Of a DNA stretch of 64,000 nt, positions 8,437 through 15,740 are shown one piece after another (the first letter of the stretch is position 1; every line of letters starts with the position of its first letter). A program made the translations under genes and the position numbers. The notes below the pieces were generated by a model. That model ran no database searches. It had not been told where the DNA came from and saw nothing but the letters and a program-made list of their open reading frames with translations. The stretch comes from a virus (taxonomy: Duplodnaviria; Caudoviricetes): the IMG/VR virus record IMGVR_UViG_3300013426_000025, positions 1 to 64,000 of that record, one strand, 5' to 3'.

Positions 8437-10615
8437 TAATACGTTATGTGTAATTAAAAGGAATGGTGAAATTGTTCCTTTTGATTTTTCAAAAATAAAA
8501 GCGGCTATTAATAAGGCAGCACAAAGTTGTAATGAAAAAATTACAGATACTTTACAAAAAGAAGACCTGTTATTTATAAAAGGAGTTATTACTGTAGAGC
8601 AAATACAAGATGCTGTAGAAAAATGGCTAATGCAACATAATTATTTCGATACTGCAAAGAGTTATATTCTTTATAGAGAGCAGCACAAACAAAGTAGATT
8701 TATCAAGGAACGTTTGGATTATATGAATAGTTATAGTAATTCAAACAATAATGCTGCTACTTCCAGCGAAACAGATGCAAATGCTAATGTAACTATGAAG
8801 AATGTAGCCAATCTTGAGGGAGAAGTATATAAAACTACTAATAGGGTTATTCAAAGACAAAGGATGAAGGATAAACTAAATGAACTGTTTCCTGAAGTCG
8901 CTAAACAATATGAAGAAGATTTAAATAATCATATAATTTATGTACATGATGAAGCAACTTCACCTTGTGCCAAATTTTATTGTTTAGCAGCATCATTATA
9001 TCCTTTAATGCTTGAGGGTACAGGAAATATTGATGGGGTTACACCTTCACCTCCTAATGATATACAATCTTTTAGTGGTCAAGTTACAAATCTTGTATTT
9101 TTATTGTCTTCTCAAGCAAAAGGGGCAGTAGCATTAGGTGGTTATATTATAGCATTAAATTATTATGTTATTAAGGAATTTGGAGAAACTTGGAGAACCC
9201 ACATTAATGATATTGTAACATCAAATTTATGTCTTAAACAAAGAACAATAAAGGACAATATTAGAAAAGGAATGAAGCAATTTATTTATGGTGTAAATCA
9301 GCCAGCAGGTAATAGAGCATACAATAGTCCTTTTTCTAATTTAAATTTCTTTGATAAGCCCTATTTTGAGGCTTTATTTAAGGATTTTTGTTATCCCGAT
9401 GGTACTAAACCTATGTGGGAAGATATTAATATGTTACAAAGAATATTTCTCGAATTACATAGAGAATTAAGATTAATCAAGCCATTAACTTTTCCTGTTA
9501 CTACAATGTGTATGTTACATGACAGTAAAGATTGTCTTGATTTAGAATATAAACAATTATGTGCAGACGAATGGGCTAAAGGAGGCAGTTTCTTTTGTTA
9601 TTTAAGTGATAATCCTAATAGTGTAAGTAGTTGTTGTAGAGTTTTGAATGAGATTCAAGATAATACATTTAGTTCCACTACTGGATTAACTGGTATTATG
9701 ACTGGTTCATGTAATGTGATTACATTGAATGTTAATAGAATTGTGCAAGATTGGTATAATTCTATGAAATGTGCTAATCCCAATTGGAGTAAAAAAGATG
9801 CTCAAGAAAGTTATGCAGACTTATATGAGTATCTTGTGGACATTCTTGATAGAGTATATAAATATCAGATAGCCTATAAAACTATTCTATACGATTTAGA
9901 AGATAAAGGTATGTTTTCTTCTTCTAATGCAGGGTATATTTATATGAAAAAGTTATATAGTACTACAGGACTTATAGGTTATTGTGAGGCAGCACAATTT
10001 TTAGGATATGAAATTTCTAATAATCAACCTTACAAGCAATTTCTGCAACTTATATTAGGCACTGTAAAGGAACAAAACAAAACTCACTCTATTAAAGACA
10101 GAAAAAGACCCTTCTTATTTAATAGTGAGGCAGTTCCAGGTGAAAATTTAGCCATTAAGTTCTATAATTGGGATAAAAAAGACGGGTATTATGTTCCCGA
10201 AGACCAAAATTTATATAGTAGTTACTTTTTTAAACAATGGGACAATAAAATCAGTATTTTAGATAAACTTAAATTACACAATAAAGATGTTAATAAATAT
10301 TGTGATGGTGGACAAGCATGTCATTTACATCTTGATGCACATTTGTCCTCTCAACAATACTCTAAAATTATTGATTTTTGTGTTAAAGAAGGAGTAAACT
10401 ATTTTACATTTAACATTCCTATTAGTGAATGTAAAGATTGTGGTCATGTTGTTAATGCTCCTGTTAAAGAATGCCCTCTATGTCATAGTACTAATATTGA
10501 TTATTGGGTAAGGATTATTGGTTTTTTAAGACCATTGTCTTCTTATAGTGAAGCAAGATTCAAAGAAGCAACTAAACGTGTTTATTCTAATGGTAGAGAA
10601 GAGATTAAAGAATGA
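8423..10615 (+). CDS. nrdD: Anaerobic (class III) ribonucleoside-triphosphate reductase
   Basis: N-terminal ATP cone (VIKRNG...FD.SKI..AI), finger loop SSCCR, C-terminal CxxC...CxxC zinc site and glycyl-radical motif RIIGF. Confidence 0.95.
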   Translation: MIMNNNTLCVIKRNGEIVPFDFSKIKAAINKAAQSCNEKITDTLQKEDLLFIKGVITVEQIQDAVEKWLMQHNYFDTAKSYILYREQHKQSRFIKERLDYMNSYSNSNNNAATSSETDANANVTMKNVANLEGEVYKTTNRVIQRQRMKDKLNELFPEVAKQYEEDLNNHIIYVHDEATSPCAKFYCLAASLYPLMLEGTGNIDGVTPSPPNDIQSFSGQVTNLVFLLSSQAKGAVALGGYIIALNYYVIKEFGETWRTHINDIVTSNLCLKQRTIKDNIRKGMKQFIYGVNQPAGNRAYNSPFSNLNFFDKPYFEALFKDFCYPDGTKPMWEDINMLQRIFLELHRELRLIKPLTFPVTTMCMLHDSKDCLDLEYKQLCADEWAKGGSFFCYLSDNPNSVSSCCRVLNEIQDNTFSSTTGLTGIMTGSCNVITLNVNRIVQDWYNSMKCANPNWSKKDAQESYADLYEYLVDILDRVYKYQIAYKTILYDLEDKGMFSSSNAGYIYMKKLYSTTGLIGYCEAAQFLGYEISNNQPYKQFLQLILGTVKEQNKTHSIKDRKRPFLFNSEAVPGENLAIKFYNWDKKDGYYVPEDQNLYSSYFFKQWDNKISILDKLKLHNKDVNKYCDGGQACHLHLDAHLSSQQYSKIIDFCVKEGVNYFTFNIPISECKDCGHVVNAPVKECPLCHSTNIDYWVRIIGFLRPLSSYSEARFKEATKRVYSNGREEIKE

Positions 10616-12277: not shown

Positions 12278-12568
12278 ATGGAAATAATAACATTAAAAAG
12301 TAATATAAATAGGTATAAACATCTACTTTACCCCTTAAAATCTTTGAGTAGTGATACTATAGCATACAAATACTATACCGAATATCCTCCTAAGATTTTA
12401 AGGAATAAAGTAGGTAATATAAACGGAATAGAATTTCATTGTGGTCCTACTCTTATGTTTGGTGTAGAAGACTATCAATGCCATAAGATACTAAAGGAAA
12501 TATCACCAGCCTTTAGACAAAATGGGCAAGCACGTGAATACCTATTTGATGTATTAATATTTGAATGA
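12278..12568 (+). CDS. Hypothetical protein
   Basis: ATG 1 nt after the dut stop; ATGA overlap with polA. Confidence 0.6.
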   Translation: MEIITLKSNINRYKHLLYPLKSLSSDTIAYKYYTEYPPKILRNKVGNINGIEFHCGPTLMFGVEDYQCHKILKEISPAFRQNGQAREYLFDVLIFE

Positions 12569-14222
12569 TTTATCTAGTTACTAAAAAAACAGAACTATTT
12601 AAATCTGAATATTATACTATAATTGATGCAGAGAAATCATTAGATATGATGCAGAGTTGGGATTTAATTCAATTAGATTCAGAAACTACTGGAAGAGACC
12701 CTCATATCTGTGATTTTCTCTGTGTTCAATTTGGTAATGATAAGGCAGACACAAGAATAGTTTTGGACTGTGAATCTTACAGGATAGAATTGTATAAGGA
12801 GTTACTGGAGAGTAAATTACTTATTCTTCAAAATGCTAAATTTGATATACAATTTCTGTTTAAGCATCATATTATACCAAGAAAAATTTATGATACAATG
12901 ATTGTAGAACAATTGTTGCATCTAGGTTATCCTTCAGGACAAATAAGTTATAGTCTTAAGGCGATAGCAGAAAGGAGACTTGGTATAGATATTGATAAAA
13001 CTGTACGAGGAGAGATTATTTGGAGAGGTCTTGATACTTCTGTTATTTTATATGCTGCTGGTGATGTAACATATCTAGAAAAGATAATGTTATCTCAAAT
13101 TGAAGATTTGAAGAAGCAAGATTTAATTAAAGCTGCTCAGTTAGAAAACAGAACGGTAATAGCAATAGCATATATAGAATGGTGCGGGATTCATCTTAAT
13201 CAAACCAAATGGAAAGAAAAGATGAAGAAAGACCAAGCTAATTTACAAAATGCTATTACTGCCCTTAATTCTTTTATAGAAGAAAAGGCAGGAACTGATG
13301 GTTATACTGTAGAACAGGATTTTGTTATCAGAAGAGCTAGAATAGTTCCTGGTGTTTCTCCATTACAAATTGAAACTTTTGAATTTCCAGAAAATTCTAT
13401 TGAAATCCCTAATAGCAGAAGAAAAGTACACTCCGTACAAGAAGCGTGTAATAACGAACCTGAAGTTGTAACTGATGACATTGTTACTAGAATAAAACGT
13501 AAATTTCCTTTTTGCGAAGTTAATTTACAAGGGGATCTATTCTCTGGATTTAACACTAAGCCTAAATGTATAATTAATTGGTCTAGTTCAAAACAGGTTA
13601 TTCAAGTAGCTAAATGGTTAGGATTTGATACAACAGTTCAAGATAAAAAAACAGGAGAAAACAAAGATAGTGTTCTTGAAAAATCATTATCTATACAAAA
13701 AGGTATAAATGATGAGTTTCTTAAATTGTATTTTACTTATCAAGAGTATGCTAAAGTAGTTTCTTCTTTTGGTCAAGGACATCTTAATGCTATAAATCCT
13801 ATTACAGGAAGGCTCCATACAATATTTAAACAACTTGGTGCAGCGTCAGGTAGGTTGTCATGTGGTTCTCAACAACCTAATACTGATTTGGCAAAACTCA
13901 AGGGTTTGAACCCAAAAGAGTGTACTTATCCTAACATACAGCAATTACCAGCAGATGATAAAACAAGAGGGGCATTTAAAGCACCTAATGATAATTATCT
14001 GTTTGTTAGTGCTGATTTTAGTGCTGAAGAATCAAGATTAGGTGCTGATATATATCAAGACAAGGCTTTCTTAGATGAGTTCATACATGGTTCAAAAGAT
14101 ACTCATAATATGTTTGCATGGATTGTATACAGAAAAGAGTGTGAAGAATTAGGTTGTACTTGTGCAGCAGATGTAAAAAAGAAGGCTCCCCAATGGAGAA
14201 AAAAAGTAAAGGGGTTTGAGTT
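12565..14222 (+). CDS. polA: DNA polymerase family A, exon 1 (3'-5' exonuclease and polymerase up to motif B)
   Basis: Exo motifs DSETTG, QNAKFD, YAAGD; SGRLS, PNIQQLP, motif A DFSAEESR; ends at RKKVKGFE+TT. Confidence 0.93.
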
Positions 14223-15127
14223 AAACTAGTCGGACTCCTTACATAGAAATATGTAAGTAAAAATGCAAATTACGGTGAATACTTAAACGCCGTGATGGTA
14301 CTTTTTAGTACCTTCCTAGAGACTACTAATGCAGACCTAAGTAATGATAGTTGTACATCATTATATGGTTAAGGAATAGTCCAATATTTATTTTATATAT
14401 TAAACTTATGAAAGAAAGATATTTTTGTAAACAATGTGGTAGAGAATTTTTTACTAATAAACATGGTTCTATATATTGTAGAAAACATGGCTACCAAATT
14501 GAAAAATATGGTTATTGCTTGGATAGTAATCCAAGAAATAAATTTGACCCTAATGAGTTCAGATTTATAGGTAATGATGTAGTAGAATTTGACACATATA
14601 AAGAGCCTTCTTGGTGTGTTGACAAAACTTATACTATTGATGCTGAAGACTATCCTTTAGTATCAAAATATCATTGGGTTTCTGATATAAATGGCTATGC
14701 TAGAACAAGACTAAGTAATGGAAAGATTATACTATTACATAGATTAATTACGGATGCAAAGTTAGGACAACAAGTTGACCATATTAATTTGAATGTTATT
14801 GATAATAGGAAAGAAAACTTAAGAATTTGCAGTAATTCTTTAAATTCTTCTAATAGAAAACCTTATAACAAATTAGGTGTAAAAGGCGTAGAGTATCATA
14901 GAAAAGAGAATAAATACTCTGCTTATTTTAGAATTGACAATAAACAATATCATTCCCCTTGTTATAAGACTATTGAAGAAGCAGCATTTGCAAGATTTAT
15001 ATTAGAGCAATTATTTAGAGAGGAGCAATTAACACAATTTAATGATTCTTATATAAATAATCTTACAATTGAGCAAAAAGAGAATATTATTGATAATATA
15101 AAAAGGAAGTTTAATATTAAATAGATG
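14223..15127 (+). mobile_element. Group I self-splicing intron in polA (905 nt)
   Basis: The 5' exon ends in U and the intron ends in G. P1 GAGUU/GACUC has a U.G at the splice site; P10 UAGUCG/CGGCUA; P7 GACUA/UAGUC. Removal restores motif B KGFEFGYMFGG in frame. Confidence 0.93.
14408..15124 (+). CDS. Intron-encoded HNH homing endonuclease (Zn finger + HNH + AP2-like domain)
   Basis: CKQC...CRKH; LHRLI, VDHINLNVIDNRKENLR; KGVEYHRKENKYSA...YKTIEEAAFAR; ATG at 14408 lies just after the ribozyme core. Confidence 0.9.
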   Translation: MKERYFCKQCGREFFTNKHGSIYCRKHGYQIEKYGYCLDSNPRNKFDPNEFRFIGNDVVEFDTYKEPSWCVDKTYTIDAEDYPLVSKYHWVSDINGYARTRLSNGKIILLHRLITDAKLGQQVDHINLNVIDNRKENLRICSNSLNSSNRKPYNKLGVKGVEYHRKENKYSAYFRIDNKQYHSPCYKTIEEAAFARFILEQLFREEQLTQFNDSYINNLTIEQKENIIDNIKRKFNIK

Positions 15128-15740
15128 CGGCTACATGTTTGGAGGTTCAGCACCAACATTAGCAAAAACAGCAGGATGTTCTGTTGAAGAAGCACAATCT
15201 GTAATAGACACTCTTGATAAGGCGTTCTCTGGCATGACAAATTATGCTAAAAAAGGTTCAAGATTTGTAAAAAATAATGGTTATATTGTAATCAACCCAA
15301 TAACAAAACATAAAATGTATTGGTGGGATTGGAAATATTGGAAAGAGCAAGAAGTAAAATTTAATTCTCCTGGCTTTTGGGATGAATATAAATTACATCA
15401 TAAAGGTACAGGAGATTCAATTGCTATGGAGGTAAGAGAACATTTTCAAGCAGGTTCTAAGTGGGATAGAATGGCTAGAAATGCAGTAACACAGGGCACT
15501 GGGGCTGTAATTATGAAAACTGCTCTTATCAACTTATTCTGGTGGATTGTAAACAACAATCTTTTTAATATAGTGCATATATGTGCTTCTGTACATGATG
15601 AAATATGTTGCGATTTTCCAAAAACATTATCCAATTTTCCACAAACACTTGAAAAAATAATGGAAGATGCTGCTGCTGAATATTGTAAGTCATTACCTAT
15701 ACCAGCAGAAGCAGCAGTAGGTGACCATTGGATTCATTAA
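15128..15740 (+). CDS. polA: DNA polymerase family A, exon 2
   Basis: GYMFGG (end of motif B), RMARNAVTQGTGA, motif C VHDEI; spliced product is 756 aa. Confidence 0.93.

What the first reader, a model, noticed from the sequence alone, without database searches (positions are those of the whole stretch)
14223..14390. Unusually small group I ribozyme core, with almost no P5 and P9 occupied by the endonuclease ORF
Seen: P1 to P7' spans only about 160 nt. P2 is CUUACAUA-GAAA-UAUGUAAG (14238-14257); P3 UGCA/UGCA; P4 UACGGU/GCCGUG with only 12 nt between the strands (GAAUACUUAAAC), leaving no room for a real P5 helix; P6a GGUACU/AGUACC; P7 14321-14325/14377-14381; P8 14334-14370. The HNH stop codon ends 3 nt before the terminal G, so 3' structure must overlap coding sequence (candidate pairing UAUUUA 14385-14390 with UAAAUA 15118-15123). 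Established: the Azoarcus intron (about 205 nt) is the standard small model and keeps P5. Inference: this is a minimal natural ribozyme, or one that needs a protein cofactor.
Basis: partly seen in the sequence, partly recalled or inferred. Interest (0 to 1): 0.7.

Follow-up and report, generated by a model that had tools for sequence, protein, structure and literature searches.

The report
Compact group I intron, stub P5
A gut crAss-like phage splits its DNA polymerase gene with a genuine self-splicing-type (group I) intron whose catalytic RNA is stripped almost to the minimum, making it a useful natural "mini-ribozyme" variant but not a new kind of element.

Summary
Window 14223-15127 is a 905-nt group I intron in the motif B Phe codon of a crAss-like phage polA gene. 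It carries a 238-aa HNH endonuclease ORF.

- **Family:** I found 19 same-site copies in gut and animal phage contigs; the 17 distinct cores aligned give strong covariation for P2, P3, P4, P6 and P8. P10 changes with the exon 2 sequence.
- **P5:** only 12 nt lie between the P4 strands, read as G-C, tandem AA/AA, then a 1-bp, 4-nt-loop stub. Relatives have 14-20 nt, with 2-4 bp.
- **P9:** no local hairpin is conserved after P7'. Instead, the 20 nt after P7' pair with the last 17 nt of the intron, so the ORF fills "L9" (cognate vs non-cognate test, p<1e-5).
- **Clamp:** the only evident tertiary clamp is an L2 GAAA loop with a textbook 11-nt receptor in P8.
- **Detection:** Rfam's group I model does not detect this intron or its relatives at other polA sites, although it scores T4 sunY at 105 bits.

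The design is closest to T4 sunY (small P5, core-ORF-remote 3' splice site) but lacks P7.1/P7.2 and the L9-P5 contact. At 160 nt to P7' it is comparable to Azoarcus, not far smaller.

Self-splicing and any need for a cofactor are untested. Unchecked notes from this scan describe other compact phage group I introns on other DNA.

The parts
12565..14222 (+). polA exon 1 (3'-5' exonuclease domain plus the N-terminal part of the family A polymerase domain). It ends with the first two bases (UU) of the motif B Phe codon.
   Evidence: Pfam DNA_pol_A_exo1 and DNA_pol_A, profile positions 30-201. Intron-less homologues have exactly one codon between the two exon matches. Intron-less L060 reads gagtt^cgggtacatg, against the window's exon ends gagtt^cggctacatg.
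14218..14237 (+). P1: exon GAGUU (14218-14222) pairs with the guide GACUC (14233-14237). The splice-site wobble is U14222.G14233. An in-frame UAG at 14227-14229 lies in the P1 loop.
   Evidence: Read directly from the sequence. All 5 pairs are invariant in 17/17 homologues.
14228..14232 (+). P10 part of the guide sequence, AGUCG. It pairs with the first bases of exon 2, CGGCU (15128-15132).
   Evidence: The guide changes with exon 2 in homologues: GUGAG/CUCAC, GGCUG/CAGCC, AAGCAG/CUGCUU, CAAAAUAG/CUGUUUUG, UGCG/CGCA.
14238..14257 (+). P2, an 8-bp hairpin capped by a GAAA tetraloop (14246-14249).
   Evidence: 5 of 8 pairs show compensatory changes. The loop is GAAA in nearly all members.
14264..14267 (+). 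P3 5' strand (UGCA). It pairs with 14330-14333. J3/4 (AAUU) follows at 14268-14271.
   Evidence: 4 of 5 P3 pairs have compensatory changes, for example CG:8 UA:5 GC:4.
14272..14293 (+). P4 (ACGGUG 14272-77 with CGCCGU 14288-93) enclosing the P5 remnant. The remnant is J4/5 AA 14278-79, the stub U14280-ACUU-A14285, and J5/4 AA 14286-87.
   Evidence: The P4 pairs are invariant or covary (UG:10, AU:1; CG:16, UA:1). GAA and AC of the frame are invariant. The stub pair is U-A, C-G, U.G or U.U in the 12-nt forms. Relatives carry 14-20 nt with 2-4 bp here.
14294..14315 (+). P6/P6a: GA-U-GGUACU, loop UUUU, AGUACC-U-UC. J6/7 (CUA) follows at 14316-14318.
   Evidence: The basal pair covaries GC:9 / AU:8.
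14319..14325 (+). P7 5' strand G[A]GACUA, part of the classical R element. It pairs with UAGUCC at 14377-14382. The bulged A14320 next to G14321-C14381 is the expected guanosine-binding site.
   Evidence: The sequence is nearly invariant across the family, with 96% of cells paired. The assignment of the G-binding site is inference from established group I structure.
14326..14333 (+). J7/3 (CUAA, only 4 nt, so no P7.1/P7.2) followed by the P3 3' strand UGCA (14330-14333).
14335..14369 (+). P8. Its base is the 11-nt GAAA-tetraloop receptor (CCUAAG 14336-41 with UAUGG 14364-68). A 7-bp upper stem and the conserved loop AGUUGUAC sit above it.
   Evidence: 7 of 8 upper-stem pairs have compensatory changes. 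The receptor motif is conserved in the family and in distant relatives. Docking of L2 into this receptor is inferred from the known motif.
14370..14382 (+). J8/7 (UAAGGAA) and the P7 3' strand UAGUCC, the classical S element.
14385..14405 (+). 5' strand of a long-range P9 / P9.0-like helix. It covers the leader just upstream of the HNH start codon.
   Evidence: It pairs with 15110-15126 (16 bp, -6.6 kcal/mol). Across 12 distinct homologues, cognate ends average -6.9 against -3.0 kcal/mol for non-cognate ends. None of 100000 permutations did as well, and the terminal segment beats every internal ORF window in 7/12.
14408..15124 (+). HNH homing-endonuclease ORF (238 aa). It fills the loop closed by the P9-like helix.
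   Evidence: PHROG 99 HNH endonuclease, E=6e-30. Pfam HNH_3 scores 21.3 bits, below its 24.8 cut-off. Orthologues at 61-72% identity sit in the same place in five of the homologous loci examined. The stop codon lies 0-8 nt from the 3' splice site in 14/14 complete copies.
15110..15127 (+). 3' strand of the P9-like helix. It overlaps the last HNH codons and the stop codon, and is followed by the terminal guanosine G15127.
   Evidence: The terminal nucleotide is G in 13 of 14 complete homologues.
15128..15740 (+). polA exon 2. It starts with the third base of the Phe codon and continues GYMFGGS...
   Evidence: Pfam DNA_pol_A, profile positions 216-379.

Best explanation
Window 14223-15127 is a mobile group I intron in the motif B Phe codon of the family A DNA polymerase gene of a crAss-like (Crassvirales) gut phage.

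**Shown: the ribozyme anatomy.** It is a pared-down version of the canonical fold.
- P1 and P10 are formed by one guide sequence.
- P2 is capped by GAAA.
- The P3/P7 pseudoknot carries classical R and S sequences, with a bulged-A G-C site in P7.
- P4, P6 and P8 are present.
- P5 is cut to one base pair closing a 4-nt loop. The flanking frame G-AA...AA-C is invariant.
- There are no P7.1/P7.2 and no local P9 hairpin.
- The roughly 20 nt after P7' pair with the last roughly 17 nt of the intron. The whole HNH gene therefore sits in the loop, and the terminal G is brought next to P7.

**Inferred: how it works.**
- The tandem A.A pairs keep the usual J4/5 role of recognising the U.G wobble in P1.
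- The L2 GAAA loop docked in the 11-nt receptor of P8 replaces the usual L9-P5 clamp as the main tertiary brace.
- Splicing can complete only after the whole ORF has been transcribed, because the 3' strand of the closing helix includes the HNH stop codon.
- That helix also covers the HNH translation-start leader. Splicing-competent folding and endonuclease translation probably compete.
- The HNH enzyme cuts intron-less polA alleles and drives homing.
For: **Gene context.**
- The gene is split polA with an HNH ORF between the halves.
- Intron-less homologues fix the junction to the nucleotide.
- The nearest cultured polA relatives are Bacteroides crAss-like phages.

**Family.**
- 19 same-site copies (17 distinct cores aligned) were found in viral, metagenome and MAG contigs.

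**Core structure.**
- Covariation statistics support the structure.
- P10 covaries with exon 2.
- The P5 segment is 12 nt in 9 members and 14-20 nt in 8, with the GAA / (A/G)AC frame kept throughout.

**3' domain.**
- RNAalifold finds zero conserved local pairs in the 90 nt after P7' or in the last 100 nt of the intron.
- The end-to-end helix is significant against non-cognate and internal controls.
- The minimum-energy fold of an ORF-deleted construct reproduces P2, P3, P4, P6, P8 and the closing helix.
- Distant relatives at two other polA sites share the P2-GAAA/P8-receptor design. They have 3-4 bp P5 and only a 13-19 nt tail with a 3-4 bp P9.
Against: - There is no experimental or transcript evidence of splicing for this intron.
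- Rfam RF00028 gives no hit even at E<=10, although it scores the T4 nrdD intron at 105 bits.
- The closing helix is AU-only in the window, so its register is ambiguous. It is weak in two members, L087 and L093 (-2.7 kcal/mol).
- The functional roles of the AA/AA frame, the L2-P8 contact and the translation coupling come from textbook group I structure, not from tests here.
- With one clamp and no P5, the RNA may not fold unaided.
Confidence: 0.8

Rival explanations
1. The anatomy is the same, but the ribozyme is not self-sufficient. Having lost P5 and the L9-P5 clamp, it needs a protein to fold. The protein could be the intron's own HNH enzyme acting as a maturase, or a phage or host RNA chaperone.
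For: - Only one long-range tertiary contact (L2-P8) is recognisable.
- P5 is a 1-bp stub and its length is evolutionarily labile.
- All 19 same-site copies keep an intact HNH ORF, and no ORF-less derivative was found.
- From my own knowledge, protein-dependent group I introns with weakened periphery are established: yeast bI3 with its maturase and Mrs1, and Neurospora CYT-18 clients.
Against: - No maturase activity is known to me for HNH enzymes.
- Intact ORFs are equally expected for an actively homing element.
- The T4 sunY core, with a similarly small P5, self-splices in vitro (my own knowledge, not checked here).
- The core helices are regular and strongly conserved.
Confidence: 0.25
2. 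Conventional peripheral elements do exist but are hidden. A P9, P9.1 or P9.2 hairpin, or a partner for the P5 segment, is formed by HNH coding sequence. The ribozyme would then not be minimal.
For: - From my own knowledge, the 3' domains of some phage introns overlap ORF ends.
- The 3' strand of the closing helix already overlaps the HNH stop codon.
- The L8 loop AGUUGUAC is conserved without a known partner.
Against: - RNAalifold predicts no conserved pair in the first 90 nt or the last 100 nt beyond P7' in 12 diverse homologues.
- The 3' ends differ in sequence between subfamilies except for complementarity to their own 5' segment.
- Relatives whose ORF lies in L1 have only 13-19 nt after P7', so this ribozyme lineage has a tiny P9 anyway.
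- L5 varies while L8 is constant, so the two do not covary.
Confidence: 0.1
3. It is a decaying, non-splicing insertion, and the polA gene is dead or expressed as two polypeptides.
For: - The standard Rfam model gives no hit.
- One homologue (L105) appears to end in A rather than G.
Against: - Compensatory changes in P2, P3, P4, P6, P8 and P10 across 17 cores show selection on the RNA fold.
- The exons stay in frame and are conserved across motif B in every copy.
- The record is judged a complete phage genome with a single polA.
Confidence: 0.03

Closest known systems
Phage T4 nrdD (sunY) group IA2 intron with I-TevII
   Same: - It is a phage group I intron with a compact catalytic core at the 5' end.
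- The endonuclease ORF lies downstream of P7', and the 3' splice site is about 0.8-1 kb away, brought back by terminal pairings.
- P5 is very small. I read 18 nt between the P4 strands in the T4 record.
- The R/S-type sequences are similar (GACUA / AUAGUC).
   Different: - sunY has P7.1/P7.2 between P7 and P3'. It also has a P9 hairpin with a GUGA loop and a P9.1 hairpin before the ORF.
- It carries a GIY-YIG rather than an HNH enzyme.
- Rfam scores it at 105 bits.
- The window's intron has a 4-nt J7/3, no local P9, a 12-nt P5 segment and no Rfam hit.
- My model R1 does not find any T4 intron.
Azoarcus pre-tRNA-Ile group IC3 intron (about 205 nt), the standard small group I ribozyme
   Same: - Overall size is similar once the ORF is removed.
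- The periphery is minimal, with a P2 tetraloop docking on P8.
   Different: - From my own knowledge, Azoarcus keeps a full P5 that receives the L9 tetraloop and has a proper P9 hairpin. It sits in a tRNA anticodon loop and has no ORF.
- Here P5 is a 1-bp stub, there is no L9, and the core sequences are of the IA/IB type.
- Not compared by tools here.
Group I introns of crAss-like phages reported by Yutin et al. 2021 (PMC7886860)
   Same: - The phage order is the same.
- Core replication and structural genes are interrupted by introns carrying endonuclease genes.
- One homologous copy lies on OFRY01000050 (L096), a genome that paper places in the Beta group.
   Different: - That paper found introns through endonuclease protein domains and described no RNA structures.
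[quoted passage not shown]
- The ribozyme anatomy and the polA motif B site are not described there.
HNH-carrying group I introns in DNA polymerase genes of SPO1, Bastille and T7-like phages
   Same: - They are group I introns with an HNH-type endonuclease in a phage family A polymerase gene.
- Conserved polymerase motifs serve as homing sites.
   Different: - The SPO1 intron lies upstream of motif A and has its ORF before P8' and P7'.
- R1 finds nothing in SPO1.
- The insertion sites of the Bastille and T7-like introns could not be checked, because the papers are not held.

Membership tests
Group I intron (self-splicing ribozyme) | P1 helix between the 5' exon end and an internal guide, with a U.G wobble at the 5' splice site | tested here: met
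   GAGUU pairs with GACUC, with U14222.G14233. The helix is invariant in 17/17 homologues.
Group I intron (self-splicing ribozyme) | P10 pairing of the guide with the 3' exon, and a terminal guanosine | tested here: met
   AGUCG pairs with CGGCU. The guide covaries with exon 2 in the homologues. The last nucleotide is G in 13/14 complete copies.
Group I intron (self-splicing ribozyme) | Conserved core: P3/P7 pseudoknot, P4-P6 stack and P8, supported by covariation | tested here: met
   94.8% of cells are paired and 24 pairs have compensatory changes. No shuffle out of 500 reached this.
Group I intron (self-splicing ribozyme) | P5 helix continuing the P4-P6 domain | tested here: not met
   Only one candidate pair (U14280-A14285) lies inside a 12-nt segment. 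Relatives have 2-4 bp. The J4/5-type AA/AA frame is kept.
Group I intron (self-splicing ribozyme) | P9 hairpin after P7' | tested here: inconclusive
   No conserved local hairpin was found. A long-range helix closes the ORF and can be read either as P9 with the ORF in L9 or as an extended P9.0.
Group I intron (self-splicing ribozyme) | Match to the curated covariance model Rfam RF00028 | tested here: not met
   There is no hit at gathering score or at E<=10. The positive control, T4 nrdD, scores 105 bits.
Group I intron (self-splicing ribozyme) | Guanosine-dependent self-splicing | not testable with these tools
   This needs in vitro transcription and splicing, or RNA-seq junction reads.
Subgroup IA2 (T4 td / nrdB / sunY, SPO1, Twort type) | P7.1 and P7.2 hairpins between P7 and the 3' strand of P3 | tested here: not met
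   J7/3 is CUAA, 4 nt, in all 17 members.
Subgroup IC3 (Azoarcus / Anabaena tRNA intron type) | L9 GNRA loop docking into P5, and IC-type core sequences | tested here: not met
   There is no L9 and no P5 to receive it. RF00028 also gives no hit.
HNH homing endonuclease | HNH (His-Me finger) catalytic domain encoded inside the intron | tested here: met
   PHROG 99 E=6e-30. Pfam HNH_3 is weak at 21.3 bits against a 24.8 cut-off. The motif DH-N...N-NLR is visible in the translation. Cleavage activity was not tested.

The most novel reading that the evidence does not exclude
This would be a naturally self-sufficient group I ribozyme of about 180-200 nt that works with no P5 helix and no L9 clamp. 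Its only 3' domain is a long-range helix that pairs the endonuclease gene's translation-start leader with its stop-codon region. Ribozyme closure (3' splice-site docking) and endonuclease translation would then be mutually exclusive and timed by completion of ORF transcription. It would be a new minimal model system and a built-in splicing/homing switch.
Probability: 0.3. Interest if true: 0.6.

Novelty: new variant of a known kind. Interest (0 to 1): 0.45.

Why it matters
- **Minimal requirements.** This family shows, with covariation support, how far nature has trimmed the group I fold. The J4/5 wobble-receptor frame is kept while the P5 helix and the L9-P5 clamp are dropped, leaving one tetraloop-receptor brace.
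- **A possible model ribozyme.** If the ORF-deleted RNA splices, it would be a compact model the size of Azoarcus or smaller, with a different set of stabilising contacts.
- **Intron censuses.** The family, and its relatives at other polA sites, are not detected by Rfam RF00028. Censuses that start from that model (for example the database in PMC11835236) probably under-count introns in the most abundant human gut phages.
- **Annotation.** Recognising the intron restores an intact polA in genomes where the gene otherwise looks broken.

Tried and rejected
- **Rfam searches.** At gathering score and at E<=10 on the intron, only chance hits appeared (CRISPR-DR47, RT-6, a snoRNA). I rejected these.
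- **blastn against cultured phages.** The core gave no match.
- **HNH relatives in cultured phages.** CrAssphage LMMB, an Enterocloster phage and S. thermophilus phages carry free-standing genes with no related ribozyme. I dropped this line.
- **PDB sequence search with the HNH protein.** No hit.
- **R1 against T4, Twort, SPO1 and CrAssphage LMMB.** Nothing significant, so there is no detectable kinship with the classical IA2 phage introns. The own genome holds only this one copy.
- **Pattern scan of bacterial genomes.** It mostly gave chance hits in coding DNA (L111-L115), which I discarded. Only L116, a Muribaculaceae MAG contig, is a real copy.
- **Tree of the cores.** I built it to ask whether the 12-nt P5 form is derived. 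The tree is poorly resolved and the two forms are interspersed, so no direction can be claimed.
- **Partners for L5 or L8.** I looked by eye for covarying partners. One 7-bp match of L8 to ORF sequence in the window is absent from the one homologue checked by eye (L070) and was rejected.
- **Literature phrase searches.** Searches for 'smallest group I intron' and 'lacks P5' returned nothing. The Bonocora & Shub and Landthaler & Shub papers are not held.
- **Subgroup assignment (IA3 or IB).** I could not make one because the GISSD subtype models are not available here.

Full report
**What is at the site.** The window belongs to a 105.7-kb virus record judged complete. ORF listing shows a family A DNA polymerase broken into a 554-aa piece (12565-14229) and a 201-aa piece (15135-15740), with a 238-aa ORF between them. 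Pfam places exon 1 on DNA_pol_A profile positions 30-201 and exon 2 on positions 216-379. The middle ORF is an HNH endonuclease: PHROG 99 at E=6e-30, and Pfam HNH_3 just under its cut-off. The nearest cultured polA genes belong to Bacteroides crAss-like phages such as Kolpuevirus and PhiCrAssBcn. One homologous contig, OFRY01000050, is a Beta-group crAss genome discussed by Yutin et al. 2021.

**Splice sites.** Intron-less relatives (L001, L002, L003, L053, L054, L060) have exactly one codon between the end of the exon 1 match and the start of the exon 2 match. L060 reads gagtt^cgggtacatg where the window's exon ends read gagtt^cggctacatg. The intron is therefore 14223-15127 (905 nt), lies inside the motif B Phe codon (UU|C), and ends in G15127. 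GAGUU (14218-22) pairs with GACUC (14233-37) with a U.G wobble at the splice site. AGUCG (14228-32) pairs with CGGCU at the start of exon 2. In the homologues the P10 part of the guide changes together with exon 2: GUGAG/CUCAC, GGCUG/CAGCC, AAGCAG/CUGCUU, CAAAAUAG/CUGUUUUG, UGCG/CGCA. This is strong comparative evidence for group I chemistry at these exact bonds.

**A family, and covariation.** A blastn search of polA loci from IMG/VR and three pattern scans with the R...S elements gave 19 same-site copies. All lie at the same codon and all are followed by an orthologous HNH ORF. I aligned 17 distinct cores (A3) and scored a hand-drawn structure.

| Measure | Result |
|---|---|
| Cells forming standard pairs | 94.8% (shuffles: 83.6%) |
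| Pairs with changes on both sides | 24 of 50 |
| Shuffles reaching the observed values | 0 of 500 |
| Pairing after sliding the register | 33-43% |

P2 (5 covarying pairs), P3 (4), P4 (2), P6 (3) and P8 (8) are individually supported. P1 is invariant and P7 nearly so.
- G14277-C14288 extends P4.
- G14294 and A14295 pair with U14314 and C14315 as the base of P6 (GC:9 / AU:8).
- P7 has a sixth pair, G14319-C14382, with a bulged A14320. This is the usual setting of the guanosine site (inference).

J7/3 is 4 nt, so there are no P7.1/P7.2.

**P5.** Between the P4 strands the window has 12 nt, GAAUACUUAAAC. Across the family, GAA and AC are invariant and the position before AC is A or G. The middle six nt vary: UACUUA, UAGCUA, UAGUUA, UGCUAG, UGCAAU, CAGAUG. 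Their first and last bases form U-A, U.G, C-G or U.U. I read this as G-C, then tandem A.A/A.A (or A.G), then a 1-bp stub closing a 4-nt loop.

Eight other members have 14-20 nt here, with 2-4 bp stems in the same frame, for example GGAU-AAAA-AUCU in L099 and GUUU-UAAA-AGAC in L071. P5 is thus labile and, in the window's form, essentially gone, while the A-rich frame is fixed. That frame corresponds in position to J4/5, the receptor for the P1 wobble pair in solved group I structures; its function here is inference. A tree of the cores does not resolve which form is ancestral.

**P9.** The HNH start codon lies 25 nt after P7'. The stop codon lies 0-8 nt from the 3' splice site in all 14 complete copies; in L087 and L093 the stop codon's G is the terminal G itself. 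RNAalifold finds no conserved pair in the 90 nt after P7' or in the last 100 nt.

Instead, the segment right after P7' is complementary to the last 15-17 nt of its own intron. This gives 12-17 bp in two blocks in 12 of 14 copies, for example -11.4 kcal/mol in L089 and -10.5 in L082.
- Cognate pairs average -6.9 kcal/mol against -3.0 for non-cognate combinations.
- None of 100000 permutations did as well.
- The true 3' end beats every internal ORF window in 7 of 12 introns (first test).

The sequences differ between subfamilies, so this is covariation rather than conservation. In the window the register is ambiguous because both strands are AU-only. The family favours 14386-93 + 14397-404 with 15110-17 + 15119-26, which ends directly at the terminal G.

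**Tertiary brace.** L2 is GAAA in nearly all members. The base of P8 is the textbook 11-nt receptor, CCUAAG...UAUGG (14336-41 / 14364-68), with variants CCUAAA...CAUGG. With no L9 and no P5, this is the only recognisable long-range clamp; its docking is inferred.

**Wider kin.** A covariance model of the family (R1) finds weaker relatives at two other polA sites. They share the P2-GAAA/P8-receptor design and the R/S sequences, but have 3-4 bp P5 and a long P6. Only 13-19 nt follow P7', containing a 3-4 bp hairpin. Their guide sequence sits just before P2, so their ORF lies in L1. In L107 that ORF is a LAGLIDADG gene running into the core. Small P5 and tiny P9 are therefore traits of a crAss-phage polA intron lineage that has been invaded by different endonuclease genes in different loops.

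**Comparison with known introns.**
- Rfam RF00028 gives nothing for the window intron or these relatives even at permissive thresholds, but scores the T4 nrdD (sunY) intron at 105 bits.
- Reading sunY from the T4 record shows 18 nt between its P4 strands and the same order of core, ORF and remote 3' splice site. It also has P7.1/P7.2, a GUGA-capped P9 and a P9.1.
- SPO1's polymerase intron lies upstream of motif A, with its ORF before P8'.
- R1 does not detect T4, Twort or SPO1 introns.
- Yutin et al. found crAss introns through endonuclease domains only.
- A 2025 intron database and the Jug-phage survey both rely on Infernal models derived from existing alignments.
- I found no description of this ribozyme architecture, but my literature search was limited to phrase matching.

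**Size.** From the 5' splice site to the end of P7' is 160 nt (149-164 across the family). With the leader and the 3' strand, the non-ORF RNA is about 203 nt. With a short P9 like its relatives it would be about 175-180 nt. That is about the size of Azoarcus, not far below it.

**Verdict.** This is a real, well-supported, compact variant of a known kind. Whether it self-splices unaided is the open question. Unchecked notes from this scan report other compact phage group I introns on other DNA, including one with a tiny P5 in a polymerase motif C and one lacking P9 in a capsid gene. Such trimmed ribozymes may be common in gut phages.

Noticed in passing
L105:8363-8470 (- strand; contig QWCI01001221): By homology of exon 2, this same-site intron ends in A rather than G (...UAAUGUAAGAA|CUCACAAC). 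That could be an omega-A intron, an assembly error or a decaying copy.
   Followed up: no
L107:8478-9525; also L007:5339-6130, L052:5528-6574, L063:5372-6429, L103:2709-3777 (-): A second, related compact group I intron sits about 65 codons upstream in polA. Its guide sequence lies just before P2, so the ORF is in L1. In L107 the ORF (8551-9504) is a LAGLIDADG gene whose last 200 nt or so run through the ribozyme core up to P7'. L103 and L107 carry both introns about 190 nt apart.
   Followed up: partly
L039:5153-5933: A third polA insertion site (about residue 430 of the exon 1 protein) holds another relative of the ribozyme (61 bits with R1). Only 14 nt follow P7', and a 93-aa ORF without a clear domain lies upstream of the core.
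   Followed up: partly
window 14349-14356: The P8 loop AGUUGUAC is conserved through most of the family and even in the distant L039 intron, yet I found no complementary or covarying partner. It may be an unrecognised tertiary contact.
   Followed up: partly
window 14336-14341 / 14364-14368 and homologues L070, L089, L096: The G.U pair of the 11-nt tetraloop receptor is replaced by A and C (CCUAAA...CAUGG or CAAGG) in several members. This is a concerted change inside the receptor motif.
   Followed up: no
window 14227-14229: The exon 1 reading frame stops at a UAG two codons into the intron, inside the P1 loop. Ribosomes translating exon 1 would therefore end next to the guide sequence.
   Followed up: no
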